A stretch of 64,000 bases of DNA from Bacteroidota bacterium (GTDB lineage: Bacteria; Bacteroidota; Ignavibacteria; UBA10030; UBA6906), in the NCBI GenBank assembly GCA_017860635.1, contig JAGDMK010000001.1, forward strand, positions 15,727 to 79,726, given 5' to 3'. The translations under genes were made by a program, and so were the position numbers. The notes beneath the pieces were generated by a model, which did no database searches, was not told where the DNA came from, and worked only from the letters and a program-made list of their open reading frames with translations. The number at the start of each line of letters is the position of its first letter. The stretch's first letter is position 1. Shown in pieces: positions 5,795 through 60,164 of this stretch.

Positions 5795-7939
5795 ATGAAA
5801 ACGCGTTTCCGCTGCCTCGCAATCGTCCCTGTTCTGCTGTGTCCCTCTGCTTCTGCCCAATGGATACAGACGAACGGACCCTACGGCGGAGATGTGCTGT
5901 GCTTTGCCGCAAGCGGCCCATATGTCTTTGCCGGCACTTCGCGGGGTGGTGTCTTCCTCTCCAGCAATGGCGGCACAAGCTGGACATCGGCGGGTGCAGG
6001 GTTGACGCACTACTCTGTCAATGCGCTTGCTGCGAGCGGTGAATATCTTTTTGCCGGGACCGGTGGTGGTGGCGTGTTTCGTTCGACCAATGGAGGCACA
6101 AGTTGGACTGCCGTGAGTTCCGGCTTGACGTGCCGTGATGTCCGATATCTTGCCGTCAGCGGCACCAATCTCTTTGCCGGGACATGGGGCGACGGTATCT
6201 TACGTTCAACTGACAACGGCACAAGCTGGACCGTCGCAGATTCGGCAGGGGAATGCATATCATCTTTGGCAATCAGCGGCACGAACATCTTTGCGGGTGA
6301 ACCCGGCGTCGGGGGTGGGTGAGGAAATGCCTGGACCCTGGGTGGGGTCCGCCTCTCTACTGATAACGGCACAACCTGGGTCAAAGTCGACAACACGCTG
6401 GGCTGCCGGGATGTGCGTGTTCTGGCTTTGAGTCCTCCTTCCGGCGGAGAGAATGTCCCGAACCTCTTTGCCGGGACTTCCAACGGCGTGTTTCGCTCGA
6501 CCGACTGCGGTGCATGGTGGTCGGGCTCGAGTGTTGGCTTGAGTAGCACTGACATCAGGTCTCTTGCCGTCAGCGGCACAAATCTCTTTGCCGGGACGTG
6601 GGGTGGCGGTGTCTATGTATCGTCCAACAGTGGCGCAAACTGGACACGCATCGATTCTGGCTTGACAAACCGTCGAGTCAGATCGGTTGCCGTCTTCGGC
6701 ACCACTCTCTTTGCGGGAACTGATAGCGGCATCTTCCTCTCTGTGAACAGCGGTACAAGTTGGACTGCCGCCAATTCCGGCTTGACGAGCACGTATGTGC
6801 GATCTCTGGTCGTCAATGGCACAAGTCTCTTTGCCGGGACCGAAGGTGAGGGTGTTTTTCGTTCGACCGACAGTGGCACAAACTGGATCACCGCGAGTTC
6901 CGGTCTGACAAACCCTGATGTCAGATCTCTTGCCTTCGACGACACAATCCTCTTCGCCGGGACTGGCGGCGCCGGCGTCTTTCTCTTGAGAGATGGCGGT
7001 ACAAGCTGGAAGGCGGCGAATGCCGACATGAAAGGCGCTAACGTCTATTCGCTTGCCGTCGGCGGCACAAGTCTCTTTGCGGGGACCGAAGGGGCCTTTT
7101 TCCGTTCCACCGACAATGGCACGACCTGGACCAGGGTAGACTTGCCGAGTGATTGTGTCTGTGCTCTCGCCGTCATCCCCTCCGGCAGCGGGACAGGCGT
7201 TACAGAGGTCTATGCCGGAACCTGGGGGGACGGCGTATTTCGTTCGACCGACAGTGGCAGGAGCTGGACGTCGGCGAGTACCGGTCTGACGAGCACCACT
7301 ATCTTGTCTCTTGCCGTCAATCCCGCCGGTGACGGGACTGGCGCCACAGACCTCTATGCTGGAACCTGGGGGGGCGGCGTATTTCGCTCGCCCCAGAGCG
7401 GCACAAACTGGATGGCAGCAAGTACCGGCCTGACGTGCCCCTCGGTCCACGCGTTTACCGCCTCCGGAAAGAATCTCTTTGCGGGAACGACCAACGGGGT
7501 TTTTCTCTCGACAGATCGCGGCACGTCCTGGACGAATACCAGCTTAACAGACGTATCTGTCCATGGTCTGGCGTGTTCCGGTACGAATCTTTTTGCTGGA
7601 ACTCTTGGGTCCGGTGTGTGGCGGCGTCCGCTCTCGGAGTTGGTTACCCACGTTGAGATGCCACCACTCCGCCCGACTTCATTTGCACTACACCAGAACT
7701 ACCCGAACCCGCTCAACCCGAGCACGACCATCAAGTATGAGTTACCCAAATCATCGGAGGTCAGATTGAGCGTGTTCGATATGCTCGGACAGGAGGTATC
7801 TGTCTTGGTGAATGAGAGGAGGGAGGCAGGAGTTCACGAGGTCAAGTTTGACGGTTCAAATCTTGCGAGCGGAGTGTATTTCTACCGACTACAGGCAGGT
7901 GATTTCGTTGAATCGAAGAAACTCGTGCTTTTGAAATAG
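5795..7939 (+). CDS. BNR/Asp-box ~45-aa-repeat beta-propeller cargo protein with T9SS CTD, interrupted by an in-frame TGA at 6320-6322 (candidate recoded or split gene)
   Basis: ORFs 5795-6322 and 6413-7939 are in the same frame and separated only by TGA, with no other stop in between. The upstream part has the signal peptide 'MKTRFRCLAIVPVLLCPSASAQW'. The downstream part has ~12 'NLFAGT.GGGVFRSTDNGTSWT' repeats and the CTD but no signal peptide of its own. Confidence 0.6.
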
Positions 7940-8512: not shown

Positions 8513-10729
8513 ATGACGACTCAATTCATCTGTCTTGCACTCGTCATTGTTCTGCTTTGCCCCTGTGTGCCAGCCCAATGGGTCCAAACGACCGGTCCTG
8601 GTGGTGGTAATATCGGCGCCATTGCCGTCAGTGGCACGAATGTGTTTGTGGGGACAGGCTTCCCCTTTTTTGGTGTTCACAATGCCGGTGGTGTCTTTCG
8701 CACAACGGACGATGGAGCAAGCTGGACCGCGGCCAACTCTGGTCTAACGGACATGTGCATCGGTTCTCTTACGGTCAGTCCCGCCTCCGACGGGGCAGGT
8801 GGGGTGAATCTCTTCGCAGGGACTCTCTGCGGTGGAGTCTTACGCTCCACCGACAACGGGACAAGCTGGACTGCTACAAGTTTGACGAGTGCGTTTGTCA
8901 CCTCTTTTGCCGTCAGTGGCACAAATCTCTTTGCGGGGTCCCCCGGACCTACGTGATATGGTGGTGAGACCCCAGGTGGGGTCTATCGTTCAACGGACAA
9001 TGGTAGCACCTGGACTGCGGCTAGCTCAGGTCTATCGAACTCGGTTGTCCGTTCTCTTGCCATCAGCGGGACGAATCTCTTCGCGGGGACTGACGGCGGT
9101 GTGTTTCTTTCTACCAACAACGGGATGAGTTGGAGTTCGGCCAATAGCGGTCTGCCCCTCCCGGACCAGTTCGGCAATGTTGCTAGTGTCATGTGTTTTG
9201 CGGTCAGCGGCGCGAATCTCTTTGCGGGCACTGGTGGTGGCGGGGTCTTTCTTTCCACGAACAATGGGACAAGCTGGACAGAAGCCGGCTTGACAAATAG
9301 TCGAGTTGGTGCTCTTGCTGTCTCCGGCACGAATCTCTTCGCGGTGACAGGCAGGTTTCTTGACAGTGGAGTCGTCTTTCGTACCACGGACAATGGTACA
9401 AACTGGACTGCGGCTAGTTCAGGCCTGCCGAACATGTGGGTCCGGTGTCTTGCTGTCAAAGGGACGAATCTCTTTGCATGCGGTGACGGCGGTGTGTTTC
9501 TATCCAGTGACAGCGGCACAAGCTGGAGTTCGGTCAACGCTCGTCTACCGAACACGGAGGTCTCGTCTCTTGCTGCCGCTGGGACAAATCTCTATGCGGG
9601 GACACGCCATTTCGCCGGTTACACTCTAGCCGTCTTTCTTTCAACCGATTTCGGGACAGACTGGGTCGTGTACAACGAGGGTCTGACAGACACGAGGGTC
9701 AGGGTTCTTGTTGCCAGTGGGATGTATCTTCTTGCTCAGAATGATAGCGGCGGTGTCTTTCTTTCCAGGGATAGCGGCAAAAGCTGGACCACGGCTAGCT
9801 CAGGTCTGACGAACACGTATGTCAGCTGTCTTGCTGTCAGCACATCCTCCGACGGGACAGGTGGTACGAATCTCTTTGTGGGGACTGGGTACGACGGTGT
9901 ATTTGTTTCCACCAATAACGGTACAAACTGGAATGCGGTCAACTCTGGTCTAGCCAACACTCGTGTATTGTCTCTTGCAGTCAGCGGGACAAATCTCATT
10001 GCAGGCACGGAAGGCGGCGTGTTTCTTTCCACGAACAGGGGAACAAGCTGGAGTCCTGTCAAATCAGGTCCAATAGGTACGTATGTGAATTCCCTTGTTG
10101 TTGGCGGGGCGTATATCTTTGCGGGGACTTACAATGCTGGTGTCTTTCTTTCCACTAATAGTGGGGTAAACTGGACTGCGGTCAATAGTGGCCTCCCAAA
10201 AGACCAGAACGGCATTCTGCCCCATGTCATGTGCTTTGCTGTCAGCGGCGCTAATCTCTTTGCGGGAACTGACGGCGGTGTCTTTTGTACAACCAACGAC
10301 GGCGTAAGCTGGACTGCCGTCAATACCGGTCTGACAAACACTTCTGTCGAGGCACTCGCCGTATCGGGCGCGTATCTCTTTGCAGGCACTGATGGGGCAG
10401 GTGTGTGGTGCCGCCACTTGTCGGAAATGATTACCTCGGTTGAGCCCGTGGTGACCGAATTACCGCACGAGTTCTTTGTCCAACAGAACTACCCCAATCC
10501 CTTCAATCCGAGCACGACCATCACGTACGCGCTACCTAAGTCTTCAGAAGTCAAATTGAGTGTCTTTGACATGCTGGGTCGTGAGGTCTCTGTCTTGGTA
10601 GGCGAGAGCAAAGATGCGGGGGTCCACCAGGTCAAGTTTGACGGTTCGAATCTTGCGAGCGGAGTGTATTTCTACAGATTAAAGGCGGGAGTTTTCGTAG
10701 CGACGAAACGACTGCTTTTACTAAGATGA
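8513..10729 (+). CDS. BNR/Asp-box repeat beta-propeller cargo protein with T9SS CTD, interrupted by an in-frame TGA at 8954-8956
   Basis: ORFs 8513-8956 and 9101-10729 are in the same frame with no other stops between them. Signal peptide 'MTTQFICLALVIVLLCPCVPAQW'. Many 'NLFAGT..GVFLSTNNGTSW' repeats. CTD 'NYPNPFNPSTTITYALP'. Confidence 0.6.
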
Positions 10730-16481: not shown

Positions 16482-17729
16482 ATGAGAGCCCAACCCATTT
16501 GGCTCGCTTTTGTGCTCCTGTTGTCCTGTTCCTGCGTGACAGCCCAATGGATTCAAACCTCCCTTGACAGTTGTAGCATCCATTGTTTTGCCGTAATCGG
16601 TACGAACCTCTTTGCCGGCACTTGGAACTGCGGCGTCCTACTTTCGACCAACAGTGGCGCAAGTTGGACACAGGTCAACAATGGCTTGCCGGACAGCCCT
16701 GTTGAGGCTCTCGCAGTCTCCGGCACAAGCCTGTTCGCGGGGACCAATGACAGCGGGGTCTTCCTTTCGACTAACAGTGGCGGCACCTGGAAAGAAGTCA
16801 GCTCAGGACTGTCGAAGAGATACAACAAAGCCCTGGTTGTGAGTGGCACAAGACTCTTTGCCGGGTCTTGGGACCAGGGTGTCTTTCTGTCAACAGACAG
16901 CGGTACCAGCTGGTCTGCAGGAAGCGAAGGACTACCCGAAGGTCCACCCAGATATCCCAGCATTGAAGCTTTTGCCCTAATTGGCACAAGTCTCTTTGCC
17001 GGAACATACGGGCATGGTGTCTTTCGCACGACATGCGATGGCGCTAGCTGGACAGAGGTCAATTCCGGTTTAATCGGAAATGACATTGGCTGTCTCGCTG
17101 TACTCGGTGCAAATCTCTTTGCTGGAACAGTGTTTTGGAGTCGTGGCAGTGTCTATCGTTCCACCAACAATGGTGAAAGCTGGACTGAGGCTGATTCCGG
17201 CTTACCGGGAGCCAGTGTCGCATCTCTTGCCGGCTCAGACGGGATTCTACTAGCTGGAACTGAAACAGGTGCGAGGGGCAGTGTCTTCTTGTCTACCAAC
17301 TTTGGTGCATGCTGGTCTGAGTTTAGCTCCGGCCTGCCGAATACTGCTGTCAATTCCTTGGTTATCTCGGCTCTGCATATTTTCGCCGGGACTCCCATTG
17401 GCGTCTGGAGACGACCTTTGTCAGAAGTTGTTGCGGCGGTCGACGCAGGGACAGACGACCTGGCAGATGCGCTCTTGCTTCAGCAGAACTATCCGAACCC
17501 GTTCAATCCCAACACGACCATCAGGTACGAATTGCCCGTATCCTCAAATGTCAGGTTGAGTGTGTACGACATGCTTGGACGCGAGGTGTCGATGTTGGTC
17601 AACGAGAAGAGAGATGCAGGAGTTCACGAGGTGCAGTTTGGTGGGTCGAATCTCGCGAGCGGAGTGTATCTCTATCGACTGCAAGCGGGTGATTTTGTCC
17701 AGTCGAAGAAGCTCGTGATTTCAAAATAA
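16482..17729 (+). CDS. BNR/Asp-box repeat beta-propeller cargo protein with T9SS CTD (intact paralog, no internal stop)
   Basis: Signal peptide 'MRAQPIWLAFVLLLSCSCVTAQW'. Repeats 'SLFAGTNDSGVFLSTNSGGTW' etc. CTD 'NYPNPFNPNTTIRYELP'. RBS 'aaaggagg'. Confidence 0.8.
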   Translation: MRAQPIWLAFVLLLSCSCVTAQWIQTSLDSCSIHCFAVIGTNLFAGTWNCGVLLSTNSGASWTQVNNGLPDSPVEALAVSGTSLFAGTNDSGVFLSTNSGGTWKEVSSGLSKRYNKALVVSGTRLFAGSWDQGVFLSTDSGTSWSAGSEGLPEGPPRYPSIEAFALIGTSLFAGTYGHGVFRTTCDGASWTEVNSGLIGNDIGCLAVLGANLFAGTVFWSRGSVYRSTNNGESWTEADSGLPGASVASLAGSDGILLAGTETGARGSVFLSTNFGACWSEFSSGLPNTAVNSLVISALHIFAGTPIGVWRRPLSEVVAAVDAGTDDLADALLLQQNYPNPFNPNTTIRYELPVSSNVRLSVYDMLGREVSMLVNEKRDAGVHEVQFGGSNLASGVYLYRLQAGDFVQSKKLVISK

Positions 17730-17883: not shown

Positions 17884-20046
17884 ATGAGGAGCCAATTCAT
17901 GGGCATAGCGCTCGCCGTGGTTCTCGTTTGCGCCTGTGCGCCCGCTCAATGGATACGAACCAACGGACCTTATGGTGGCTACGTCCACGCATTTGCTGCC
18001 AATGACACCAATCTTTTTGCGGCCACTTATGGCAGCGGTGTCTTTCTCTCCACTAACCATGGCAACAGCTGGACGCCGGCCAGCACAGGTTTGACGAACA
18101 GGGGCGTGAATACGCTTGCATTCAGCGGCACGAATCTCTTCGCCGGGACTGAGGGCGATGATGTCTTTCTCTCAACGAACAACGGTGAAAGCTGGACTGC
18201 CGTCAGCACTGGCTTGACGAATCAGTATATCTATGCCCTTGCTGTCTCCGGCACGAATCTCTTTGCCGGAGGTGGCGGCGTATTTCTTTCAACAAACAAT
18301 GGCACAAGCTGGAGTGCGGTCACAACGGGGTTGCCGACGGGATATGATGTCAGAGCTCTCGCCGTTTCCGGGACGAACCTTTTTGCAGGGACTTCTGGCA
18401 ACGGCGTCTTTCTCTCCACCGACAATGGCACCAACTGGACGCCGGCAAATGCGGGCTTGGAGCGCGCTAGTGTCTATGCTCTCGCCATCTCGGGGACGAA
18501 TCTCTTTGCTGGGACTTGGGGTAGTGGGGTCTTTCTTTCGACTGACAACGGCACAAGCTGGTCTTCGGCGAGTACAGGTCTGGTGAGTACATGTATTGTT
18601 GCCCTGGCCATTAGCGGGACCAACCTGTATGCGGGGGCAAGCCCCTCGTGAGGTAGTGCCCCGGCCTCAGGTGGGGTCAATGTTTCGACAGATAACGGAG
18701 CAAGCTGGAGAGCAGTCAATACCGGCTTGACGAATATGTATGTCTTAGCTCTTGGTGTCTTTGGGACGGATCTCATTGCCGGGACTGATGGCGATGGAGT
18801 CTTTCTCTCCACGAACAACGGTGAAATCTGGACAGCTGTCAACACAGGAATAACCAACACAGGTATCAACGTCATCGCTAGGAGCGATACAAATCTCTTC
18901 GCAGGGGCTCATGAGATGGGTATCTTTCTCTCCACAAACAATGGTGATAGCTGGACATCGGTCAGTGCAGGATTGGCGAACATGACTGTTAATGCTCTTG
19001 CATTTAGCGGCACAAGCGTTTTTGCGGGGACAGCGGGTGGAGTCTTTCTCTCCACGAACAACGGTTCAAGCTGGACGGCCGTCAGCGCATGGAGCGGGGA
19101 TGTCTGTGCCTTGTCTGTCAGCAACATGAATCTCTTTGCGGGGACTCATGGTGGCGTCTTTCGCTTCACCAACAATGACAGTAGGTGGACCGCAGTCGAC
19201 ACGCGTTTGACGAACGGGCCTGTCTTCGCGCTTGCTTCCAGCGACGGGTATCTTTTTGCGGGCACTGATCTTGGCGTATTTCGCTCCACGAACGATGGCA
19301 GTAGCTGGACAGCGGTCAACGCGGGTCTACCCGATAGGATGAATGTCCGTGATTTAGCTTTCAGCGGCACCAACCTTTTTGCGGGAACAGCTGAGTACGG
19401 TGTCTTTCTGTCTACAGACAATGGTGATAGTTGGACAGCCGTGAACACAGGCTTAGTCAACACGTGCGTGCAAGCGCTTGCAGTCGCCGGCACAAACCTC
19501 TTCGCGGGGACTGCTTTCCACGGTGTCTTTCTGTCTACAAACAATGGTAACAGTTGGACAGCCGTGAACTCAGGCTTAGCCAACACGGACGTGAAAGCGC
19601 TTGCTGTCAGCGGCGCCAACCTCTTCGCGGGAACAGCTGGAATATATATGCTTTCAGGTCGTTTTGGTGGTGGCGTGTGCAGACGACCTCTCTCAGAGAT
19701 GATTACTTCCATCGGAACCATCACAAACGGTCTCCCCGAAGAGTTCTTGCTCCATCAGAACTACCCAAACCCCTTCAACCCGAGCACCACCATCAAATAC
19801 GAGTTGCCTGCATCGTCTGATGTCAAACTGAGTGTGTACGATGTGCTTGGTCGTGAGGTGTCAGTATTAGTGAATGAGAGAAGGGATGCGGGAGTTCACG
19901 AAGTGAAGTTTGACGGTTCTGGTCTTGCGAGCGGATTGTATTTCTACCGATTACAGGTCCGCCCTCTGGACTCCGCCATCGAGCGAGACTCCAAGAGCGG
20001 AGCTGGCGATTTCGTAGCGACGAAACGACTCCTGTTATTGAAGTAA
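17884..20046 (+). CDS. BNR/Asp-box repeat beta-propeller cargo protein with T9SS CTD (CTD variant with an 18-aa insertion), interrupted by an in-frame TGA at 18649-18651
   Basis: ORFs 17884-18651 and 18727-20046 are in the same frame with no other stops. Signal peptide 'MRSQFMGIALAVVLVCACAPAQW'. CTD 'YRLQVRPLDSAIERDSKSGAGDFVATKRLLLLK'. Confidence 0.6.
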
Positions 20047-20186: not shown

Positions 20187-22754
20187 ATGAAAGACAGGTC
20201 TTTCTGTCTCGCAGATCCATCAACGGCAACGACCCTCAGAAGATATTGCATGGTTCTTCTTTCCTTGGTCCTGTTGTCCGCCGACCTCTGGGCACAACGT
20301 GGAGCCTGGACAAGGAAAGCAGACATGCCAACTGCAAGGGCCGTTGTCTCCGTTTGTGTCGTCAACAACAAGATCTATGTGATCGGAGGAGTGGACAGGA
20401 TCGGCGGTAGTCTCGTCAGCGTGGCTGTCAACGAAGTCTATGACCCTTCAACGAATACCTGGGAAGTGAAGAAGCCTCTGCCGTTACCCAGATCGTTTGT
20501 TTCCACAGCGGCTGTGGACAGCATCGTCTATGCCATAGGCGGCATTCACGAGGGGTTTCATCCCGATGTTGGTACGTCGACAGTTTACGCTTATGATACA
20601 GGGACTGATTCGTGGACCCAGCGAGCAAATATGCTTGGGCCGAGGTATGCTGCATCGCCGGGCGTTGTTGATGGAATCATCTATAATGTTGGGGGTAATC
20701 ATGTTGAGCACAATTGCGAAGCGTACAATCCGGCAACAGACACATGGACGAGGAAGGAGGATATCCCTGAGGCCTACGGAGGTGTAATGGTGGCCTCATA
20801 TGGTGGACTACTCTATGGATTCGGTGGAGGATTTGACAGATCATTCCAAACAGTCTACGCTTATGATCCGAAGACAGACAGATGGACAAAGAAAGCAAAC
20901 ATGCCTACGGCCAGAGCTACTTCCCAGGCCGTTGTAGTCGACGGCAAGATGTACGTCCTGGGAGGATACACTTCTTATCCCCTCGGTGATGTGCTGCCGG
21001 ATCTGGAAGTATATGATCCAGTTGCAGACCGCTGGAAAAAGTTGCCAGACATGCCATTCCCGCGCACAATGTTTGGAGCTGCCGCAGTAAACGGTAAGAT
21101 TTATGTAATAGGTGGAACATTTGACTATCAGATGGGTTTCAACGATGTGTGGGAGTATGATCCCGCATTCCATACGGATATTGCCGCAGGTACGGTCAGC
21201 GGCACCTGGACGCTGGACGGCTCTCCATATCACATCAATGGCGAAATCACAGTACCGAACGACTCAACACTCACCATAGAGCCGGGAGTGGAAGTTGTAT
21301 TCCTGGGGCATTACAAATTTAACGTCCAGGGCAGGCTGCTGGCAGTCGGCACACAACAGGATACGATACGATTCAGAGCTGCGGATACGCAGACCGGCTG
21401 GCACGGGATACGGTTCGAGGATACCCCCAGTACAAACGATACGTCAAAGATCTTCTACTGCTCACTGAAGTATGGAAACGCAAACACAGGCTCTGGTCTT
21501 GATCGAAGTGGCGGTGCAATGCTGATATCTCATTTCGACAAAGTCTTGGTGTCCCACTGCCTGTTTGATTCCAATCAGCAGAGTGGTGATGGGTGGCATC
21601 CGCCCGAAGCAGATGGCGGAATCTTTGTTTACTATGCTTCAACGACAATTACGAATAGTACGTTTTCCAACAATACAAGTTCAAAAAGTAGCGCGATCGG
21701 ATGTGTATATTGTCCTAATGTCATCATATCAAACAACGTGTTTCACAACAACACTGGGAAGTATGGTGCCCTCGCCTGTTGCTACTATAGCCGGGGAACG
21801 ATATCAGGCAACATGTTCTACAACAATGTCGCAACTGAAGCTGCAGGTGGACTGCTCATTGACAACGGTGGGGCGCCGACCATTGCAAATAATGTCATTG
21901 TTCACAACCAAGGCTTCGTTGGCGGCATCTTGTGCTATAAAGGTGGCAAGCCAGTCTTGATCGGAAATACTATTGCCTACAACACAGCCAGCTATGCAGG
22001 GGGCGGTGTTGGCTGTAGTGAGGATGGCAATCCAGTTCTCATCAACAACATCATCTATGGCAATGCTGCTCCTATTGGAAAAGAAGTAGCCCTTGACGAT
22101 GAGTCGTGTGATCCGACTATTCTGTACTGCGATATCGAGGGTGGTAAGGCAGGCCTCGGGGGGACAGGCGCTGGAGCAAGTTATGCCGGGCTTTATGAAC
22201 ACAACATCGACGCTGACCCTCTGTTTGTTGATCCCGCCTCGGATGATTACCGTCTTTCAAATCATTCTCCATGTATTGGTGCTGGCACTGACTCAGTGGA
22301 GATCGCCGCGGTCTGGTACCGTGCTCCTGCATACTGTATAGGAGGGCGTGCCCGACCAAGCCCAGCCGGAACGAGGCCCGATATCGGGGCTTATGAGAAT
22401 CTCTTTGGATCACCAGTTGGTGTCAGTCAAGGGCTAATGAGCCCAAAGGAATTTTCTCTCCATCAGAACTACCCAAACCCGTTCAACCCAAGCACGATCA
22501 TCACGTACGAGTTGCCAAAATCCTCGGTAGTGAGGTTGAGCGTATACGACATGCTTGGACGTGAGGTGGTAGTGCTGGTGAACGAAAGGAGAGAGGCGGG
22601 AGTTCACGAGGTCAAGCTCGACGCGTCGGGATTATCGAGCGGAGTGTATTTTTACCGATTACAGGTCCGCCCTCCGGACTCCGCCATCGGGCGAGACCTC
22701 AAGGACGGAGCGGGGGACTTTGTAGGCACGAAGCGGCTCCTCTTGTTGAGGTAA
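20187..22754 (+). CDS. Kelch-repeat propeller plus parallel beta-helix secreted protein with T9SS CTD (insertion variant)
   Basis: RBS 'aaggagg' then an ATG at 20187. Kelch motifs 'NNKIYVIGG..EVYDPSTNTWEV'. A beta-helix region paralogous to the 10996 gene. CTD 'NYPNPFNPSTIITYELP..YRLQVRPPDSAIGRDLKDGAGDFVGTKRLLLLR'. Confidence 0.75.
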   Translation: MKDRSFCLADPSTATTLRRYCMVLLSLVLLSADLWAQRGAWTRKADMPTARAVVSVCVVNNKIYVIGGVDRIGGSLVSVAVNEVYDPSTNTWEVKKPLPLPRSFVSTAAVDSIVYAIGGIHEGFHPDVGTSTVYAYDTGTDSWTQRANMLGPRYAASPGVVDGIIYNVGGNHVEHNCEAYNPATDTWTRKEDIPEAYGGVMVASYGGLLYGFGGGFDRSFQTVYAYDPKTDRWTKKANMPTARATSQAVVVDGKMYVLGGYTSYPLGDVLPDLEVYDPVADRWKKLPDMPFPRTMFGAAAVNGKIYVIGGTFDYQMGFNDVWEYDPAFHTDIAAGTVSGTWTLDGSPYHINGEITVPNDSTLTIEPGVEVVFLGHYKFNVQGRLLAVGTQQDTIRFRAADTQTGWHGIRFEDTPSTNDTSKIFYCSLKYGNANTGSGLDRSGGAMLISHFDKVLVSHCLFDSNQQSGDGWHPPEADGGIFVYYASTTITNSTFSNNTSSKSSAIGCVYCPNVIISNNVFHNNTGKYGALACCYYSRGTISGNMFYNNVATEAAGGLLIDNGGAPTIANNVIVHNQGFVGGILCYKGGKPVLIGNTIAYNTASYAGGGVGCSEDGNPVLINNIIYGNAAPIGKEVALDDESCDPTILYCDIEGGKAGLGGTGAGASYAGLYEHNIDADPLFVDPASDDYRLSNHSPCIGAGTDSVEIAAVWYRAPAYCIGGRARPSPAGTRPDIGAYENLFGSPVGVSQGLMSPKEFSLHQNYPNPFNPSTIITYELPKSSVVRLSVYDMLGREVVVLVNERREAGVHEVKLDASGLSSGVYFYRLQVRPPDSAIGRDLKDGAGDFVGTKRLLLLR

Positions 22755-23446: not shown

Positions 23447-25183
23447 ATGAAAATCTGTGGACCTACAATATTTCTTTGGTTCGTGATCCTTGCCCTTCTG
23501 CTCCCCACCTTTGCGCTTTCACAATTTACGCGAGAGTGGGTTGCCACCTATGACGGCAGTGTCCCTGATTCGACCGGGTACGTGTACACCAGTTGGGACA
23601 ATCTCCAAGAAATGCTTGTAGACCGGGACGGGAATATCATTCTCGTGGGCGAAACTAACCCGGCCCCTTTTGAATATTCGTTGACCACAGTGAAGTTCAG
23701 TCCGCAAGGGAAGCAGTTGTGGAAGATTGATGTCCCTTTTCCGAAAGGACCCGTGAGCAGTAACTGTCAAATGGCAGTTGATGCAAAAGGAAACGTCTTT
23801 ATTGCCTACGCCGGAGCCGTGGGGGATTCTGCGGGGTGGGTCGTCCGCCGCTTTTCTGCTGCGGGGAGCTTAACCAGAACTTTCATCTTCCCGATAGCGG
23901 AGGATATCGCGGATTGGCCAAACGCAATTGCGATAGACACATCGGATAATATCATCCTTACCGGCAAGAGTAATACGGGCGGGCTTCAGTGGGACTGCGC
24001 GACGATGAAGGCAGATTCGGCCGGTAACCTCCTTTGGACGAGGCTGTACGACAGCGGTGGATGGGATGACGGTCTTGAAATCTGCCTTGACGATTCGAAC
24101 AATATCATGGTGGCTGCCGTCGGAGCGGGGTTCGGTACCGATGACGATATGGTGACGCTCAAGTACGATGGCAACGGGAACCTCTGCTGGGCGAAGGACT
24201 ATAACGGCGGCGGACTTGGATGGACGGATGATTGGCCAGTGTCCATACAATCAGATGCTGCGGGAAACGTCTATGTAACAGGGTATAGCCAACCTTCTGA
24301 GTCTGCCTGGTATGGCATCGCTACCCTCAAGTATGCCCGCGACGGCAGAGAGATGTGGTGCAGGAGAATCGAGGATGCCCTTGTTGGGTGCTTCGATTTT
24401 TCTTCTCATCATACAATGCATGTGGATGACATCGGCAATGTCTATCTTACCGGCAGCACGGATCCTGATTCTGGTTCGGATGACCTCTTGACTTGCAAGT
24501 ATTCGACCGATGGATCTCTGCTCTGGAAGACAATTTACCCGGACAGCGCGCGCGGTGATGACCTAGGAAAGGGGATAACTGTTACACCCTCGGGCCACGT
24601 GGTCGTTGCAGGCGAAGTCTACGAGACGCTCTCGGCAGGCAGGTATCCCACGATCCTTTGCTATGACACTGCGGGCAGAATCGTCGGACGTGATATTTAT
24701 CATGGCAACGTTAGCCCGCTGGAAAAGTGGGCCTTCTCCGTTGCCATGGGTCCGGACAACAGTATTTATCTTTCTGGAATGGATGAAGATTGGGCCACGG
24801 GCCGTGATTTTCTTCTGATCAAGTATTCTCTCACGGTCACAGGAGTTGAATCACCACACAGATTGTCTCTCCCCGACGAGTTCGCCCTGGCACAAAACTT
24901 CCCCAATCCCTTTAATCCGAGCACGACCATCGAATTCGAATTGCCCCTGTCATCGGAAGTCAGATTGAGTGTGTACGATATGCTCGGGCGGGAGGTGGAG
25001 GTTCTCGTGAATGAAAGAAGGAACGCGGGAGTTCACGAGGTCAAGCTCGACGCGTCGGGACTATCGAGCGGAGTGTATTTTTACCGATTGCAGGTCCGCC
25101 CTCTGGACTCCGCCATCGGGCGAGACTCCAAGAGCGGAGCAGGAGATTTCGTGGCGACGAAACGGCTGCTTCTGTTAAGATAG
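23447..25183 (+). CDS. SBBP-type beta-propeller repeat secreted protein with T9SS CTD (insertion variant)
   Basis: RBS 'aggagggg'. Signal peptide 'MKICGPTIFLWFVILALLLPTFALSQ'. Repeated 'G.vyvtGys' units (NVYVTGYS, NVYLTGST, HVVVAGEV). CTD 'NFPNPFNPSTTIEFELP..YRLQVRPLDSAIGRDSKSGAGDFVATKRLLLLR'. Confidence 0.7.
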   Translation: MKICGPTIFLWFVILALLLPTFALSQFTREWVATYDGSVPDSTGYVYTSWDNLQEMLVDRDGNIILVGETNPAPFEYSLTTVKFSPQGKQLWKIDVPFPKGPVSSNCQMAVDAKGNVFIAYAGAVGDSAGWVVRRFSAAGSLTRTFIFPIAEDIADWPNAIAIDTSDNIILTGKSNTGGLQWDCATMKADSAGNLLWTRLYDSGGWDDGLEICLDDSNNIMVAAVGAGFGTDDDMVTLKYDGNGNLCWAKDYNGGGLGWTDDWPVSIQSDAAGNVYVTGYSQPSESAWYGIATLKYARDGREMWCRRIEDALVGCFDFSSHHTMHVDDIGNVYLTGSTDPDSGSDDLLTCKYSTDGSLLWKTIYPDSARGDDLGKGITVTPSGHVVVAGEVYETLSAGRYPTILCYDTAGRIVGRDIYHGNVSPLEKWAFSVAMGPDNSIYLSGMDEDWATGRDFLLIKYSLTVTGVESPHRLSLPDEFALAQNFPNPFNPSTTIEFELPLSSEVRLSVYDMLGREVEVLVNERRNAGVHEVKLDASGLSSGVYFYRLQVRPLDSAIGRDSKSGAGDFVATKRLLLLR

Positions 25184-53532: not shown

Positions 53533-54105
53533 TTGGCCAGACGTTTCATAGACACACGTCAAAAGGAGTGTGCTACGGTGAAAACAGAACCGAACCATGC
53601 CGGGCGGACCACGCTCGGAGCAGTCATTATCCTTTGTGCCCTTGGAGTCATCGCGGGATCATGTGCACGGTGCGACCTTGACTCCGCCGGAAAGACAGAG
53701 GAGGGGAAAAACACCATGTTGCGCATCGTTTTGGGTGAAGGAGGCGGTTTTGCCGGAACCTGGGATGGGTATACAATCACGGGAACCGGTGCCGTCTACA
53801 AATGGAGCGGGAAAGGAGCGAGAGAAAATGAGGTCGAGATCGGCACCCTGGATGCCGACACGATGTGCACGCTCTGGGATGAGGCAAAGGCCCTGAGGAC
53901 AGTTCCCCCGACGGACTCTGCCGGATCTCTAGTGCGGTTCCTCAGCCTGACGGTCCAGGACACCACACGTGAATACACCTGGAGACCGCAGCTCGGTCAA
54001 AGCCCCTTCAGGCCTCTCTATCAGCACTTCTACGATCACTGTCTCATCGTGGTACAGAAATCATTACTACCGACCACAAAAAACACAGTTCCCTCTGGAA
54101 AGTGA
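53533..54105 (+). CDS. Hypothetical protein (possible lipoprotein)
   Basis: 'LGAVIILCALGVIAGSC'. The exact start is uncertain. Confidence 0.35.
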   Translation: MARRFIDTRQKECATVKTEPNHAGRTTLGAVIILCALGVIAGSCARCDLDSAGKTEEGKNTMLRIVLGEGGGFAGTWDGYTITGTGAVYKWSGKGARENEVEIGTLDADTMCTLWDEAKALRTVPPTDSAGSLVRFLSLTVQDTTREYTWRPQLGQSPFRPLYQHFYDHCLIVVQKSLLPTTKNTVPSGK

Positions 54106-57100
54106 CAGACCCCATGAGACACTCTCTGATATTGTTATTCGCCCTTGCGGTGCTGCTGGGCGATTCGCTTCAAGCGGGGAACACGAAGATACCGTCTTCA
54201 TCTTCCACCCCGAATGGCTTCGATCTCAAGAAGGCACGGCATTATGCTCCTTCGGCTGCTCAACACTCCCTGTTTGCGTCCGACGTTGCGAACCTGACCG
54301 ATCGTATTGCGGCAGCCACGCAGGTGCAGGCAGATGCGCTTCAGAAGCTGACTCCCGCCCAGCGAGTAGCTCTCGAATCGCTGCGGAGCTCGAACCCGGG
54401 ACGTCTTGCGATTTCCTGGGACGATGTCCATGCCGTTCCGATCTTCGTCCAGGGATTGGCCGGCGCAGCGATGGAAACTGATGGTTCCAGCCTCCCATCC
54501 AGAGAACAGGCGCAGCGCGTCGCCTCGGAGTTCCTCCAGGCCAATGCCGGACTGCTTCGGATCCAGGATCCAGCCTCCGAATTCAAGCAAATCGATCTGC
54601 AACAGGATGCGCTGGGATTCACGCATATCCGCTATCAGCAGATGTACCGTGGATCGGAAGTCTGGGGACGTGATGTCCGAGTCCATGTAAATAGTCAAGG
54701 AAAGGTCGAGAGCTTCAACGGACGGTACATTCCCACGCCGGCCGGGCTGGTGTCTGACATTACGACTGCGGATGCCGCCAGTGCACAGGCGATCGCAGTT
54801 GAGCGGTGCGGCCGCGACTGCCGTGTGACCGGAGTACGAAACGTATATCTCCCGGATGATGCCGGACGCCTGACGCTCTGCTGGGTCGTGAGTGTGGCGG
54901 GTGGACTCGATCTCCGGAACGATGTCTTTGTCGATGCCGGTACCGGCCAGGTTGCGAAAGTGTACAACAGAGTGGCGATGGATGGTCCCGTGACTGGAAG
55001 CGGCATAGACCTTCAGGGTGTTACCCGTTCGCTCGGTGTCTATCAGATCGGAACGCAGTACCTGATGATCGACGCGAGCAAGACCATGTACAATGCTTCT
55101 CAGTCGCAGATGCCTGCCGATGGAAAAGGCGTGATCTATGCATTCGATGCCAGGAATGCGGAGCAGAGCATCTACTATATCACATCAACGACTGCTTCAT
55201 CCTGGAGCAGCCGGCCCGGCGTCTCGGCACTCTACACGGGAGGCAAAATCTATGACTATTACAGGACCGTGCACAACCGGAACGCCATCGACAATCAGGG
55301 CGGGACGATGAATTTCATCGTCAACTTCAAATCCAACTACAGCAATGCTTTCTGGAACGGGCAGTACATGGTGTTCGGGAACGGAGATGGCACCACGTTC
55401 AGCGATCTGGCCGGTGCCGCCGATGTGGCGGCGCATGAGCTGACGCATGGAGTGACAGAGAACACGGCGAATCTGCTCTATGAAAACCAGTCGGGAGCAC
55501 TGAACGAGTCGTTCTCCGATGTGTTCGGAACGCTCTTCGAGTTCTGGCTCAAAAGCTCAGGCGGCAACTGGCTCTTGGGTGAAGATGTTTTCACGCCAGG
55601 GACACCCGGAGACGCCCTCCGGAGCATGTCCGATCCGGCAGGCCCCGAAGTCCCGCCAGGTTCGCGTCAGCCAACAAAAATGAGTGAGTACAAGAATCTC
55701 CCCAACGACAAATCCGGCGATTATGGCGGTGTGCACATCAATAGTGGCATTCCGAACAAGGCTTTCTACCTTTTTGCCACCGCATCGGGGATGACAAAAG
55801 AAGAGGCCGGACAGGTGTACTACCGTGTGCTGACCACGTACCTGACAAAGAACTCCCAGTTTGTGGATTGCCGGTTGTCCGTCATTAAAGCGGCAGAGGA
55901 TCTTTTCGGCGGGGCGGGGAATGCAAAAGCCCTCGCTGCGGCGGCTGCCTTCGATGCGGTCGGAATTACATCGGGTACGGCCACTACGCCGCCGACATCC
56001 GATCCCCCTGTCCAGGGCACTCAGTATGTTGCTCTCGTCAATGTCTCCGACGGATATCTGTACCGGTGGACTATGGGAACCACTACCTTCGCCAAGCTTT
56101 CAACGATGGCTCTTGCCAGCCGGCCCGCGGTGATGGACAACGGAACCTATCTGTTCTACGTCGATCAGACCAACAATCTCCATGTGGTCGGGTCGGACGG
56201 GACGAACGATCAGACCCTTTCAAGCGGCGGCGGTTTCAACAACATTGCCGTGTCACGAAGCGGCCGGTATCTGGCAGCGACAACCACTTTCTCAGAGGCG
56301 AAGATCTACGTCTTTGACCTGCAGAACAGCGCCGGCAACAAAGTGCTCCAGCTGTACACGCCGGTGTACCACACCGGAGAATCTTCCGGAAGCATATGGT
56401 ATCCGGACCGGATTGACTGGACCGCCGATGAGACGCGGATCATGTATGATGCATACAACACCACAGTGCTGACCGGCGGCGACACACTTGGATTCTGGGA
56501 TATCAATACTGTCCGTTTGGCTGAAGGGACCTGCTCACGGCTCTTTGCCGCCCAGCCCCGTGGCATCAACATCGGGAATGCCGTGTATGCATCCAATACA
56601 GACAACCTGATCGCGTTCGACTACATGGACGAGAACAGTCAGGTGAAGGTGCTGGCGGTGAATCTGAATACCGGTGATGCGGGAGTCGTGACGAATAACT
56701 ATTCCTCGTTGGGCAACCCGTCGTTCTCTGTTGATGACAAGAAGATATACTATCACTACATCAATCAATCCTCGAGCCAGTACCAGGTGTGGGCTGTCGA
56801 TTTGTTGACCGATGGGATCACCGGTTCAGGCTCCGATGTGAAGCAGCTTGACGGCGGTGTGTATCCCCTGGCATTCGCGGTAGGCACGCGTCCGACGGAT
56901 GTCCCTGTCTCCGCGGAACTTCCGCAGGGATGTCTGCTCGAGCAGAATTATCCGAATCCCTTCAACCCCGGGACCCGGATTTCCTTCCAGATCCCTGTGG
57001 CGGGAAAGGTGACGCTCAAGGTCTACGACATCCTGGGCAGAGAAGTGGCGACGCTGGTGGATGCACAGGTGCCGGCCGGAGTGCACGCGGTTCCGTTCGA

Positions 57101-57188
57101 TGGATCCGGGTTGTCGAGTGGAGTCTATTTGTACCGGCTCGATGCGGGAGGTGTGACTCAGTCACGGCGGATGATTATGGCAAAGTAG
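54102..57188 (+). CDS. M4 (thermolysin-like) zinc metalloprotease with a C-terminal beta-propeller-like region and T9SS CTD
   Basis: Signal peptide 'MRHSLILLFALAVLLGDSLQA'. 'HELTHGVTE..(19)..GALNESFSDVFG' is the M4 HExxH plus NExxSD signature. CTD 'NYPNPFNPGTRISFQIP..VYDILGREV..GVYLYRL'. Confidence 0.8.
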   Translation: MTDPMRHSLILLFALAVLLGDSLQAGNTKIPSSSSTPNGFDLKKARHYAPSAAQHSLFASDVANLTDRIAAATQVQADALQKLTPAQRVALESLRSSNPGRLAISWDDVHAVPIFVQGLAGAAMETDGSSLPSREQAQRVASEFLQANAGLLRIQDPASEFKQIDLQQDALGFTHIRYQQMYRGSEVWGRDVRVHVNSQGKVESFNGRYIPTPAGLVSDITTADAASAQAIAVERCGRDCRVTGVRNVYLPDDAGRLTLCWVVSVAGGLDLRNDVFVDAGTGQVAKVYNRVAMDGPVTGSGIDLQGVTRSLGVYQIGTQYLMIDASKTMYNASQSQMPADGKGVIYAFDARNAEQSIYYITSTTASSWSSRPGVSALYTGGKIYDYYRTVHNRNAIDNQGGTMNFIVNFKSNYSNAFWNGQYMVFGNGDGTTFSDLAGAADVAAHELTHGVTENTANLLYENQSGALNESFSDVFGTLFEFWLKSSGGNWLLGEDVFTPGTPGDALRSMSDPAGPEVPPGSRQPTKMSEYKNLPNDKSGDYGGVHINSGIPNKAFYLFATASGMTKEEAGQVYYRVLTTYLTKNSQFVDCRLSVIKAAEDLFGGAGNAKALAAAAAFDAVGITSGTATTPPTSDPPVQGTQYVALVNVSDGYLYRWTMGTTTFAKLSTMALASRPAVMDNGTYLFYVDQTNNLHVVGSDGTNDQTLSSGGGFNNIAVSRSGRYLAATTTFSEAKIYVFDLQNSAGNKVLQLYTPVYHTGESSGSIWYPDRIDWTADETRIMYDAYNTTVLTGGDTLGFWDINTVRLAEGTCSRLFAAQPRGINIGNAVYASNTDNLIAFDYMDENSQVKVLAVNLNTGDAGVVTNNYSSLGNPSFSVDDKKIYYHYINQSSSQYQVWAVDLLTDGITGSGSDVKQLDGGVYPLAFAVGTRPTDVPVSAELPQGCLLEQNYPNPFNPGTRISFQIPVAGKVTLKVYDILGREVATLVDAQVPAGVHAVPFDGSGLSSGVYLYRLDAGGVTQSRRMIMAK

Positions 57189-57256
57189 GGAGAACAATGT
57201 TCCAGTCGACGGGTCCACATCCTCGTGATAAAGTCGCCCTGCGGAGACGGTCAGAG

Positions 57257-59059: not shown

Positions 59060-59129
59060 GGTTTGGCGATACGATGTGGCTTGGCGTCGAACGTACGATA
59101 GGGCAGTGCCTCAAGCAGCGAAGTTCAGA

Positions 59130-60164
59130 TCATTCGATCCGCACCCCCAGCGAAAAGTGATGCCGGGCTCCGAAGATTCCGAAGGCTTCATATCCGTAAT
59201 CCACCCTGAGCGGGACTCCTCCCAGTTCTTCGGAAAGCCCGATGCCTCCCGTGAATCCCCTCTCGTCATAATTCATCATGTAGCCCAGCCGCGCCACGAT
59301 CATGTTCAGATACGCATATTCAGCGCCGAACTTGATCTTCTCCTCAAAATCGCGCGGATGCCGGCTCTCGATCAGCAGGGTAAGGTTCTTTGCTTCGTCG
59401 TCATCGAGGAAGAACTGCAGCGGCTGGACAGAGATCCCGAAGTTGACCGCAAACGGCATCGGGAACGCCTCATTTTCGTATTTGATCTCGCGTGAGATAT
59501 TCTGCAGCGATGCCCCGAACCGGATGCCGTTGTAGAGAAAATCGTAGCATGCCCCCACATCGAGCGCAAAATCCCCGTGGTCGTACGTACGTTCGCTGAT
59601 GACAAGGTTCGGAGTGGTAATGGACCCGCCGAACGGTCCTACCCATGCTGAGGCCAGGTCCTGCACCGCGTACTTCACCTGGACTCCGTAGCTGAACCGG
59701 TTGCTGACCTGTTGTGCGAACGCCACCCCGAGGGCGTAGGCCTTCGGGGAAAACGTTCCGGTCTCCTCGTACCCTGCGGCATTGGTGGACCGCCGCGTAC
59801 CGTAGAACTCGCCGTAGTCCATCGAGACAAAGCTGACACCCAGAACGCCGAAGCCCCAGAGATCGGCCGTGGCGGCAATGGCGTTGTAGTTGATGTCGGC
59901 GATTCCCTGTGTCCGGTGGAGCGCGATGTCGAACTGCGACTGGTTCCAGGCGGTCAGCGCCGGATTCCAGAATAGCCCGCTCGCGTTGGTCGTCGTGGTG
60001 ATGCCTGTCCCCCCGCGGCCGATGACTTCTGCAGAGACCGGGTTCTCAAGGAACCGGAAGCCCACCTGTGCCTTCTTCGTGATTTGTGAAGCTGCTACAG
60101 CCGGAAGCAGTGCTGCCAGCAGCAGTATGGCGACGCATCTGTGCGTTCTCATGGTCGGCCTCAA
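59130..60164 (-). CDS. Outer-membrane beta-barrel protein, possibly PorP/SprF family (T9SS-associated)
   Basis: Signal peptide 'MRTHRCVAILLLAALLPAVAAS'. N-terminal 'LFWNPALTAW' resembles the PorP/SprF 'NPAYAG' region. Alternating hydrophobic pattern. The 4-bp overlap with the upstream CTD cargo gene indicates translational coupling. Confidence 0.35.
   Translation of the reverse strand: MRPTMRTHRCVAILLLAALLPAVAASQITKKAQVGFRFLENPVSAEVIGRGGTGITTTTNASGLFWNPALTAWNQSQFDIALHRTQGIADINYNAIAATADLWGFGVLGVSFVSMDYGEFYGTRRSTNAAGYEETGTFSPKAYALGVAFAQQVSNRFSYGVQVKYAVQDLASAWVGPFGGSITTPNLVISERTYDHGDFALDVGACYDFLYNGIRFGASLQNISREIKYENEAFPMPFAVNFGISVQPLQFFLDDDEAKNLTLLIESRHPRDFEEKIKFGAEYAYLNMIVARLGYMMNYDERGFTGGIGLSEELGGVPLRVDYGYEAFGIFGARHHFSLGVRIE

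What the first reader, a model, noticed from the sequence alone, without database searches (positions are those of the whole stretch)
18635..18690. Third paralog (17884-20046) has an in-frame TGA at the same position and the same +18-nt 9-mer; three independent occurrences argue for selection
ORFs 17884-18651 and 18727-20046 share a frame. The read-through sequence is '..YAGASPS*GSAPASGGVNVSTDNGASW'. The TGA lies at 18649-18651 and the GGTGGGGTC 9-mer at 18670-18678 (a 'gcccc' left arm pairs with it via a G-U wobble). The three paralogs are only about 60-70% identical elsewhere. All three retain long intact downstream frames (440-540 codons) and perfect CTDs. Elsewhere in these genes GGV is encoded with varied codons (ggt ggt ggc gtg, ggc ggg gtc). 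Conservation of the nucleotide 9-mer therefore points to an RNA-level constraint. Intact paralogs such as 16482-17729 have short insertions at the homologous loop but no stop and no Cys, which makes plain Sec-for-Cys substitution less obvious and readthrough or another recoding mechanism equally possible.
Basis: partly seen in the sequence, partly recalled or inferred. Interest (0 to 1): 0.8.

Follow-up and report, generated by a model that had tools for sequence, protein, structure and literature searches.

The report
Selenocysteine codons in secreted propeller proteins
Three neighbouring genes for secreted beta-propeller proteins each carry an in-frame TGA followed by an RNA hairpin shaped like the bacterial selenocysteine-insertion signal, so they are most likely an undescribed family of selenium-containing proteins that current annotation splits into fragments.

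Summary
TGA at 18649-18651 interrupts one reading frame (17884-20046). The pattern TGA-N18-GGTGGGGTC occurs exactly three times in the window (6320, 8954, 18649; 0.02 expected). Each copy lies in frame in a paralogous Sortilin/BNR beta-propeller gene with a type IX secretion (T9SS) C-terminal domain.

The 9-mer forms the last three loop bases and the 3' arm of a 6-8 bp hairpin with tetraloop N-G-G-U. Numbered from the U of UGA, the loop is nt 21-24 and the stem nt 15-20/25-30. This is the register of the E. coli fdhF selenocysteine insertion element (A21 G22 G23 U24, minimal element nt 15-31). All published bacterial SECIS criteria are met.

Four further contigs, including an Ignavibacteriota MAG and a Bacteroidetes MAG, keep the TGA and the hairpin. 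There the 5' arm changes the encoded amino acids but never the pairing. Downstream dN/dS is 0.18-0.42, like upstream. TGA is the commonest true stop in the window.

The best explanation is SelB-dependent selenocysteine insertion in a family absent from the 119-family catalogue (confidence 0.8).

Not shown: selenocysteine machinery in the genome, Cys-containing homologues, or the role of the residue. The site lies in a different blade (3, 4, 6 of 14) in each paralogue.

The parts
17884..20046 (+). Gene g3. One reading frame of 720 codons with an in-frame UGA at codon 256. It encodes a signal peptide, 14 BNR/Sortilin-type propeller repeat units and a T9SS type A C-terminal domain.
   Evidence: Translation. 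Pfam Sortilin-Vps10 E=1.4e-21, BNR, Por_Secre_tail. TIGR04183. Repeat-unit count from the translation.
18649..18651 (+). In-frame UGA, proposed selenocysteine codon. It lies in a loop insertion between the 'LYAG' and 'GGV' strands of repeat unit 6.
18663..18678 (+). Apical hairpin of the proposed bacterial SECIS. 5' arm GGCCUC (18663-18668), loop AGGU (18669-18672), 3' arm GGGGUC (18673-18678). These are nt 15-30 counted from the U of UGA.
   Evidence: Core hairpin -8.3 kcal/mol. RNAalifold predicts the same helix on its own. All six core pairs are kept in 6 distinct sequences.
18649..18688 (+). Whole 40-nt element: UGA, a possible lower stem and the apical hairpin.
   Evidence: MFE -13.0 kcal/mol. 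RNAalifold gives a weaker lower helix.
5795..7939 (+). Paralogue g1, same architecture, with in-frame UGA at 6320-6322 in repeat unit 4.
6332..6351 (+). g1 hairpin. 8-bp stem (6332-6339 with 6344-6351), loop GGGU (6340-6343).
8513..10729 (+). Paralogue g2, same architecture, with in-frame UGA at 8954-8956 in repeat unit 3.
   Evidence: GenBank annotates only its N-terminal 147 aa, as MBP1655419.1.
8967..8984 (+). g2 hairpin. 7-bp stem (8967-8973 with 8978-8984), loop AGGU (8974-8977).
   Evidence: Identical in the Ignavibacteriota MAG locus L004.

Best explanation
The three TGA codons most likely encode selenocysteine.

Proposed mechanism (inferred):
- The mRNA directly after each UGA folds into a short G+C-rich hairpin. 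Its stem is nt 15-20/25-30 and its tetraloop is N21-G22-G23-U24.
- This hairpin is a bacterial SECIS element. It would bind the specialised elongation factor SelB carrying Sec-tRNA(Sec) and deliver it to the UGA in the ribosomal A site.
- Translation then continues and yields a full-length protein of about 700 residues: signal peptide, 14-unit (presumably double 7-bladed) BNR/Sortilin-type propeller, and a T9SS C-terminal domain. The protein is exported across both membranes.
- Without insertion, only an N-terminal fragment of 147-255 residues is made. It ends in mid-blade and lacks the secretion domain.

How the element is built:
- The 3' arm is made from the repeat's own conserved Gly-Gly-Val codons, frozen as GGU GGG GUC.
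- The 5' arm lies in the six inserted codons after Sec.

Shown: anatomy, conservation, purifying selection, RNA-level constraint.
Inferred: SelB binding, selenium incorporation, export.

The chemical role of the selenol is unknown. It sits in an exposed loop with no CxxU/UxxC motif. My guess is a metal- or metalloid-binding site, or a redox-reactive surface site.
For: 1. Statistics. There are three exact matches to TGA-N18-GGTGGGGTC against 0.02 expected. They are the only three hairpin-qualified TGAs in the window.

2. Same register as E. coli fdhF. Read from NC_000913.3, the fdhF Sec codon 140 is followed by A21 G22 G23 U24. A review (PMC8659212) states that the minimal E. coli element is nt 15-31, 11 nt from the UGA, with G23 and U24 conserved in the apical loop and G23 a SelB-binding base.

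3. All consensus bacterial SECIS criteria quoted in PMC13188914 are met:
- loop 3-9 nt: 4 here;
- stem 4-16 bp: 6-8 here;
- G in the first two loop positions followed by G or U: NGGU here;
- 16-37 nt from UGA to loop: 17 here;
- MFE at or below -7.5 kcal/mol: core hairpins -8.3 to -11.4 here.

4. Conservation elsewhere. A degenerate pattern scan of 185,579 genomes and 241 million metagenome records gave 17 hits.
- Four are homologous genes with long open frames on both sides (L004 Ignavibacteriota MAG, L007 Bacteroidetes MAG, L010, L012). All four have a 6-7 bp stem.
- The 13 other hits have 0-2 bp stems.

5. The 5' arm varies while pairing is kept. The arms are GGACCCU, AGACCCC, GGCCUC, GGCCCC, UGGCCUC and UGACCUC. 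The encoded residues change (WTL, ETP, PAS, SAP, LAS, VTS), yet all six core pairs stay paired. Overall 95% of cells are paired, against 33-62% when the partners are slid. One flanking pair shows compensatory changes (UA, AU, GC).

6. Synonymous sites are frozen over the element, and the 55-nt longest exact run sits on it.

7. Downstream dN/dS is 0.18-0.42 at dS 0.5-1.9.

8. TGA ends 27 of the 40 stop-to-stop frames of at least 250 codons listed on both strands, so there is no code reassignment.

9. The TGAs recur in independent assemblies.
Against: - No selA, selB, selD or tRNA-Sec gene lies in the window or in about 20 kb of extra flank. The rest of the genome could not be read.
- No homologue with Cys at the aligned position was found in three protein searches. 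Only two stray Cys-containing loops turned up, in other blades (P0302, P0005). Predicted selenoprotein families usually come with Cys homologues (for example Table 3 of PMC12013277).
- There is no redox motif around the residue.
- The bulged U17 that E. coli SelB needs is absent.
- The site is in a different blade in each paralogue, which is odd for a precise active site.
- Covariation rests on six distinct sequences and is mostly one-sided. The shuffle control was only 26 of 500.
- The external pattern scan required TGA, so it could not detect sense-codon variants.
Confidence: 0.8

Rival explanations
1. The hairpin stimulates SelB-independent stop-codon read-through, or tunes termination. The cell would then make a truncated periplasmic form and a full-length secreted form, with a standard amino acid inserted at UGA.
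For: No selenocysteine machinery was seen. No Cys homologues and no redox motif were found. The blade position varies.
Against: The loop bases and their distance from the UGA coincide with the SelB-binding determinants of fdhF. Every bacterial SECIS criterion is met. The truncated product would end in mid-blade. To my knowledge, no hairpin of this type has been shown to drive read-through in bacteria.
Confidence: 0.08
2. The three genes are pseudogenes, or the TGAs are assembly or sequencing errors.
For: GenBank and the gene callers annotate separate fragments.
Against: The same TGAs occur in at least three independent assemblies and in four diverged orthologues. Downstream frames of 464-590 codons are open, with dN/dS 0.18-0.42 at dS up to 1.9. 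The hairpin is conserved with frozen synonymous sites.
Confidence: 0.02
3. Each locus is two real genes: a short N-terminal propeller fragment and a separately initiated C-terminal protein.
For: Start codons exist 76-145 nt downstream of the TGAs (GTG 6413, GTG 9101, TTG 18727).
Against: The frame is continuous and the repeat unit is cut in mid-blade. The downstream part has no signal peptide yet carries a T9SS domain that needs prior Sec-translocon export. The 26-49 codons between the TGA and the next start are conserved as protein (STDNG..W) in all orthologues.
Confidence: 0.03
4. The organism reads TGA as a sense codon genome-wide (code 4 or code 25).
For: None beyond the in-frame TGAs.
Against: TGA ends 27 of the 40 stop-to-stop frames of at least 250 codons listed on both strands, including neighbours with complete Pfam domains.
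Confidence: 0.01

Closest known systems
E. coli fdhF SECIS (SelB-dependent selenocysteine insertion element)
   Same: It lies directly 3' of an in-frame UGA inside the coding sequence. The apical stem-loop occupies nt 15-31. A21, G22, G23 and U24 are at identical positions (PMC8659212).
   Different: There is no bulged U17. The loop is a closed tetraloop rather than the GGUC/AGGUCU loop. The stem is G+C-rich with G.U wobbles. The host gene is not a formate dehydrogenase.
Consensus bacterial SECIS model (bSECISearch; Zhang and Gladyshev, as summarised in PMC13188914)
   Same: All four structural criteria are met.
   Different: The model is permissive. Meeting it is necessary but not sufficient.
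Catalogued extracytoplasmic bacterial selenoproteins: FCYXU-type TonB-dependent receptor, GSU2204 outer-membrane barrel, ExtKL cytochrome, DsbA/DsbG-like proteins (Table 1 of PMC13188914)
   Same: They are selenoproteins that leave the cytoplasm.
   Different: None is a BNR/Sortilin propeller or a T9SS cargo protein. Most have a Cys partner motif.
Non-selenoprotein T9SS BNR/Sortilin-Vps10 propeller proteins of Ignavibacteria and Bacteroidota (for example P0001, P0293)
   Same: They share the 14-unit architecture, the signal peptide and the C-terminal domain, at 45-57% identity.
   Different: They lack the TGA and the P-x-U-x-G-G loop insertion.

Membership tests
Bacterial SECIS / SelB-dependent Sec recoding | In-frame UGA inside one conserved reading frame | tested here: met
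Bacterial SECIS / SelB-dependent Sec recoding | Hairpin just 3' of the UGA with a 4-16 bp upper stem and a 3-9 nt loop | tested here: met
   6-8 bp stem and 4-nt loop.
Bacterial SECIS / SelB-dependent Sec recoding | G in the first two loop positions, followed by G or U | tested here: met
   Loops AGGU or GGGU in all 7 sites.
Bacterial SECIS / SelB-dependent Sec recoding | 16-37 nt between the UGA and the apical loop | tested here: met
   17 nt in all sites.
Bacterial SECIS / SelB-dependent Sec recoding | Folding energy at or below -7.5 kcal/mol | tested here: met
   Core hairpins -8.3 to -11.4 kcal/mol; 40-nt MFE -11.7 to -19.0 kcal/mol.
Bacterial SECIS / SelB-dependent Sec recoding | E. coli-type bulged U17 | tested here: not met
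   Position 17 is C, paired with G28, in all sites. This feature belongs to E. coli SelB binding and is not part of the general model.
Bacterial SECIS / SelB-dependent Sec recoding | selA, selB, selC (tRNA-Sec) and selD present in the same genome | not testable with these tools
   None in the window or flanks.
Bacterial SECIS / SelB-dependent Sec recoding | Selenium actually incorporated at the site | not testable with these tools
   Needs 75Se labelling or mass spectrometry.
Selenoprotein family (comparative criterion) | Homologues with Cys aligned to the Sec position | tested here: inconclusive
   None among about 180 full-length relatives inspected. Only the isolated Cys loops of P0302 and P0005 were seen. 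The searches list only the best 120 of more than 6,600 hits.
Selenoprotein family (comparative criterion) | TGA-containing orthologues in other organisms | tested here: met
   L004, L007, L010 and L012.
Any of the 119 catalogued prokaryotic selenoprotein families / NCBIfam selenoprotein models | Match to a listed family or model | tested here: not met
   The NCBIfam scan returns only F510_1955-like, BamI, T9SS-domain and other non-selenoprotein models. Table 1 of PMC13188914 has no BNR, propeller or T9SS entry. No paper combines these terms.
T9SS type A cargo | N-terminal signal peptide plus C-terminal Por_Secre_tail (TIGR04183) domain | tested here: met
   Domain: PF18962 E=4e-11 and 8e-9, TIGR04183 E=1e-12 and 4e-9. 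Signal peptide: read by eye from the N-terminal hydrophobic segment ending ..AQW; no signal-peptide predictor was run.
Sortilin-Vps10 / BNR beta-propeller | Pfam PF15902 or PF02012 above the gathering score | tested here: met
   PF15902 at 77 bits against a cutoff of 33. The closest PDB sequence is 3b7f, a BNR glycosyl hydrolase, at E=2.8e-5.

The most novel reading that the evidence does not exclude
This would be the first selenoprotein family exported by the type IX secretion system. It would be a cell-surface or extracellular beta-propeller whose selenocysteine sits in an exposed blade loop with no thiol partner motif.

The SECIS is assembled from the repeat's own Gly-Gly-Val codons plus a six-codon insertion. 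In principle any blade could therefore be converted. The same loop-plus-SECIS module is indeed found in blades 3, 4 and 6 of three paralogues, either by repeated invention or by movement of the module between repeats.

The selenol may act in metal or metalloid capture, or in covalent surface chemistry, rather than in classical thiol-disulfide redox.
Probability: 0.35. Interest if true: 0.75.

Novelty: new member of a known kind. Interest (0 to 1): 0.62.

Why it matters
If confirmed, this adds a selenoprotein family of an unusual type: secreted by T9SS, non-thioredoxin fold, no Cys partner, three paralogues in one locus. It comes from an Ignavibacteria-like Bacteroidota lineage for which I found no paper describing selenoproteins.

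The genes are currently annotated as pairs of fragments (for example MBP1655419.1, 147 aa). That suggests annotation pipelines miss such cases.

The way the SECIS re-uses conserved repeat codons gives a concrete and testable example of how a coding repeat can acquire a recoding signal. It also gives a compact 30-nt element for testing SelB specificity outside Proteobacteria and Firmicutes.

Tried and rejected
- Rfam found nothing, at gathering thresholds over the whole window or at E up to 10 on 18600-18740.
- tRNA scans of the window and 11 loci found no tRNA-Sec.
- Pfam scans of 20 other window proteins and gene lists for about 20 kb of extra flank showed no sel genes.
- A 105-aa profile of the Sec blade was searched to find Cys forms. 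It returned only short fragments, because hits appear capped at about 1.75 times the query length. It yielded just two N-terminal fragments ending at the TGA (P0212, P0233).
- Full-length searches with U replaced by C found no close uninterrupted orthologue.
The position of the loop on the propeller face, and its distance to nearby Cys residues, were therefore not modelled.
- Exact look-up of the fragment ORFs in the protein collection mostly failed.
- Blade-by-blade similarity did not settle whether the module has one origin or several.
- Genetic-code reassignment was rejected.
It appears only in the single-sequence MFE fold of g3, and the comparative fold supports GGCCUC/GGGGUC.
- A Cys about 20 residues upstream (STC, GEC) was considered as a selenylsulfide partner. 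It is absent in the g2 type, and Cys is common at that strand position in ordinary blades, so nothing is claimed.

Full report
**1. The observation**

- TGA lies at 18649-18651 and GGTGGGGTC at 18670-18678.
- ORFs 17884-18651 and 18727-20046 are in one frame, and the read-through peptide is ..YAGASPS*GSAPASGGVNVSTDNGASW.
- TGA-N18-GGTGGGGTC occurs three times in the window, at 6320, 8954 and 18649, against 0.02 expected from shuffles.
- These are the only exact copies of the 9-mer on either strand.
- A structure-aware scan gives the same three sites and nothing else. It required TGA, GGT at nt 22-24 and at least 5 bp flanking a 4-nt loop. Shuffles gave a mean of 0.25. A looser scan added only off-frame noise.
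- In these genes the other 17 Gly-Gly-Val triplets use 10 other codon combinations. The chance of GGTGGGGTC at a given GGV is 0.034.

**2. The genes**

All three interrupted frames encode the same architecture (5795-7939, 8513-10729, 17884-20046).
- Each has a signal peptide ending ..AQW, then 14 repeat units of the form LFAGT..GVFLSTxNGxSW, then a type IX secretion C-terminal domain.
- Pfam gives Sortilin-Vps10 at E about 1e-21, BNR, and Por_Secre_tail. NCBIfam gives TIGR04183.
- The window holds 14 such C-terminal domains in total.
- The paralogues are 49-58% identical in protein.
- The TGA sits in a loop insertion of 10-13 residues between the LFAG strand and the GGV strand. The loop sequences are AGEPGVGGG-U-GNAWTL-GGV, AGSPGPT-U-YGGETP-GGV and AGASPS-U-GSAPAS-GGV.
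- Exactly six codons always separate the TGA from GGV.
- The insertion is in repeat unit 4, 3 and 6 respectively. All three proteins align from unit 1 to the closing GVWRRPLSE of unit 14. 'Same position' is therefore true within the repeat but not within the propeller.

**3. The RNA element**

Numbering starts at the U of UGA.
- Every site has a stem at nt 15-20 with 25-30, extended to 7-8 bp in some, and a tetraloop N21-G22-G23-U24.
- RNAalifold predicts this helix on its own, plus a weaker lower helix.
- Core hairpins fold at -8.3 to -11.4 kcal/mol.
- I fetched E. coli K-12 fdhF. Its selenocysteine codon 140 is followed by CACGGCCCAUCGGUUGCAGGUCUGCACC, which places A21 G22 G23 U24 in the same register.
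- A review states that the minimal E. coli element is nt 15-31, 11 nt from the UGA, with G23 and U24 conserved in the apical loop and U17 and G23 named as the SelB-binding bases (PMC8659212).
- The consensus bacterial SECIS criteria are all met. They are a loop of 3-9 nt, a stem of 4-16 bp, G in the first two loop positions followed by G or U, 16-37 nt from UGA to loop, and MFE at or below -7.5 kcal/mol (PMC13188914).
- The E. coli-specific bulged U17 is absent.
- Rfam has no matching model.

**4. Conservation outside the window**

I scanned with a degenerate pattern, TGA-N18-GGTGGNGTN-N6-TCNACN-N6-GGN-N6-TGG. It was run against one genome per species (185,579 species) and 241 million metagenome records, and gave 17 hits.
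- Four hits are homologous genes with long open frames on both sides. All four have a 6-7 bp stem.
  - L004 is from an Ignavibacteriota MAG (3.03-Mb contig) and is an orthologue of 8513-10729.
  - L007 is from a Bacteroidetes MAG.
  - L010 and L012 are metagenome contigs. L007, L010 and L012 are of the 17884-20046 type.
- The other 13 hits have stems of 0-2 bp and mostly short frames.
- The 5' arm varies: GGACCCU, AGACCCC, GGCCUC, GGCCCC, UGGCCUC, UGACCUC. The encoded residues change with it: WTL, ETP, PAS, SAP, LAS, VTS.
- Despite this, all six core pairs stay paired in all six distinct sequences. Three pairs switch between A-U and G.U or between C-G and U.G. The flanking pair 14-31 shows U-A, A-U and G-C.
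- Paired cells are 95%, against 33-62% when the partners are slid.
- The sample is small and the shuffle control is modest (26 of 500). The covariation is consistent with the structure but does not prove it.

**5. Selection**

- Nei-Gojobori dN/dS downstream of the TGA is 0.18-0.42 and upstream 0.12-0.34, at dS 0.5-1.9 between orthologues and paralogues (one upstream paralogue comparison gave a saturated dS of 3.0).
- Gene 8513-10729 and its L004 orthologue are 72% identical in DNA overall and 60% at third positions. The longest exact run in the whole gene, 55 nt, starts 3 nt before the TGA.
- In the 17884-20046-type comparisons, 9-11 of 11 third positions across the element are identical, against about 50-64% gene-wide.
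- The two upstream TGAs (6320 and 8954) are present in independent assemblies.
- TGA ends 27 of the 40 stop-to-stop frames of at least 250 codons listed on both strands, so the code is standard.

**6. What could not be shown**

- No selA, selB, selD or tRNA-Sec gene lies in the window or in about 20 kb of extra flank. The collection scans that could have reached the rest of the genome were already spent.
- Three protein searches found more than 6,600 relatives at E below 1e-30, mainly from Ignavibacteria, Bacteroidota and Kryptoniota MAGs. None was an uninterrupted close orthologue, and there was no consistent Cys at the site.
- P0302 has AGSTYS-C-PDGGFM-GGV, with the same six-residue spacing, but in unit 13. 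It may be chance.
- The function of the selenol is therefore a guess.

**7. Identity and novelty**

- The window is part of an 85,218-bp contig of a GenBank 'Bacteroidetes bacterium' MAG. The N-terminal 147 aa of 8513-10729 are annotated there as a separate 'BNR/Asp-box repeat protein', MBP1655419.1.
- The 2026 catalogue of 119 prokaryotic selenoprotein families has no propeller, BNR or T9SS entry.
- NCBIfam release 20 gives no selenoprotein model for these proteins.
- Full-text searches combining selenoprotein or selenocysteine with T9SS, BNR or Ignavibacteria found nothing relevant. The deep-Sep paper does not mention such proteins.

**8. Verdict**

The mechanism is of a known kind: a bacterial SECIS directing selenocysteine insertion. 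I judge it the best explanation at 0.8.

The host family appears to be new and has unusual traits:
- it is secreted by T9SS;
- it has no Cys partner motif;
- three paralogues sit in one locus;
- the module lies in a different blade in each paralogue;
- the SECIS 3' arm is built from the repeat's own GGV codons.

Rival explanations and their probabilities:
- hairpin-stimulated read-through without Sec: 0.08;
- split genes: 0.03;
- pseudogenes or errors: 0.02;
- altered genetic code: 0.01.

Noticed in passing
window 19957-20007, 22665-22715, 25094-25144 (+): Three T9SS C-terminal domains carry an in-frame insertion encoding VRP(L/P)DSAI(E/G)RD(S/L)K(S/D)GAG between 'YFYRLQ' and 'DFVATKRLLLL'. 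The DNA is nearly identical between 19957-20015 and 25094-25152 (2 mismatches in 59 nt). It folds into a strong hairpin (-20 to -23 kcal/mol over 51 nt). The same insertion is present in the orthologues on L004 and L012. It may be a small palindromic element tolerated in frame, or a functional extension of the domain.
   Followed up: partly
window 1-39400 and 54100-59060 (+): The window holds 14 genes with the QNYPNPFNP-type T9SS sorting domain, all on the + strand. They include BNR propellers, beta-helix proteins, M1 and M4 peptidases, a Kelch protein, a DUF4397 protein and a GlcNAc 2-epimerase-like protein. A faint PorV-like gene lies near 59130-60164 (-).
   Followed up: partly
window 8513-8956; GenBank MBP1655419.1: Public annotation and the gene callers split each of the three genes into two ORFs. 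The N-terminal 147-aa fragment is named 'BNR/Asp-box repeat protein'. The same fragment sequence is recorded on 8 contigs from several sources.
   Followed up: yes
protein P0302, residues 540-556: A full-length non-TGA relative has the loop AGSTYS-C-PDGGFM-GGV. It has exactly six residues between Cys and GGV, as in the Sec loops, but it lies in repeat unit 13. It may be a Cys counterpart or a coincidence.
   Followed up: no
window 16482-17729 (+): A shorter paralogue (about 7 repeat units plus the C-terminal domain) has extended loops at the same place in two units (FAGTVFWSRGSVYRST, LAGTETGARGSVFLST) with no stop and no Cys. Other relatives carry long proline-rich loops (AG..LPVPVPVGQ...) at this place in the repeat unit. 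The loop therefore seems to be a general site of variation in the family.
   Followed up: partly
L003 994-1053 (-), beta-proteobacterial MAG: The pattern also hit a BNR-type protein whose gene starts just after the TGA (M-SSGGVFESTSAGADW). There is no hairpin (0 bp). It is a chance match in a high-GC genome with long spurious frames.
   Followed up: yes
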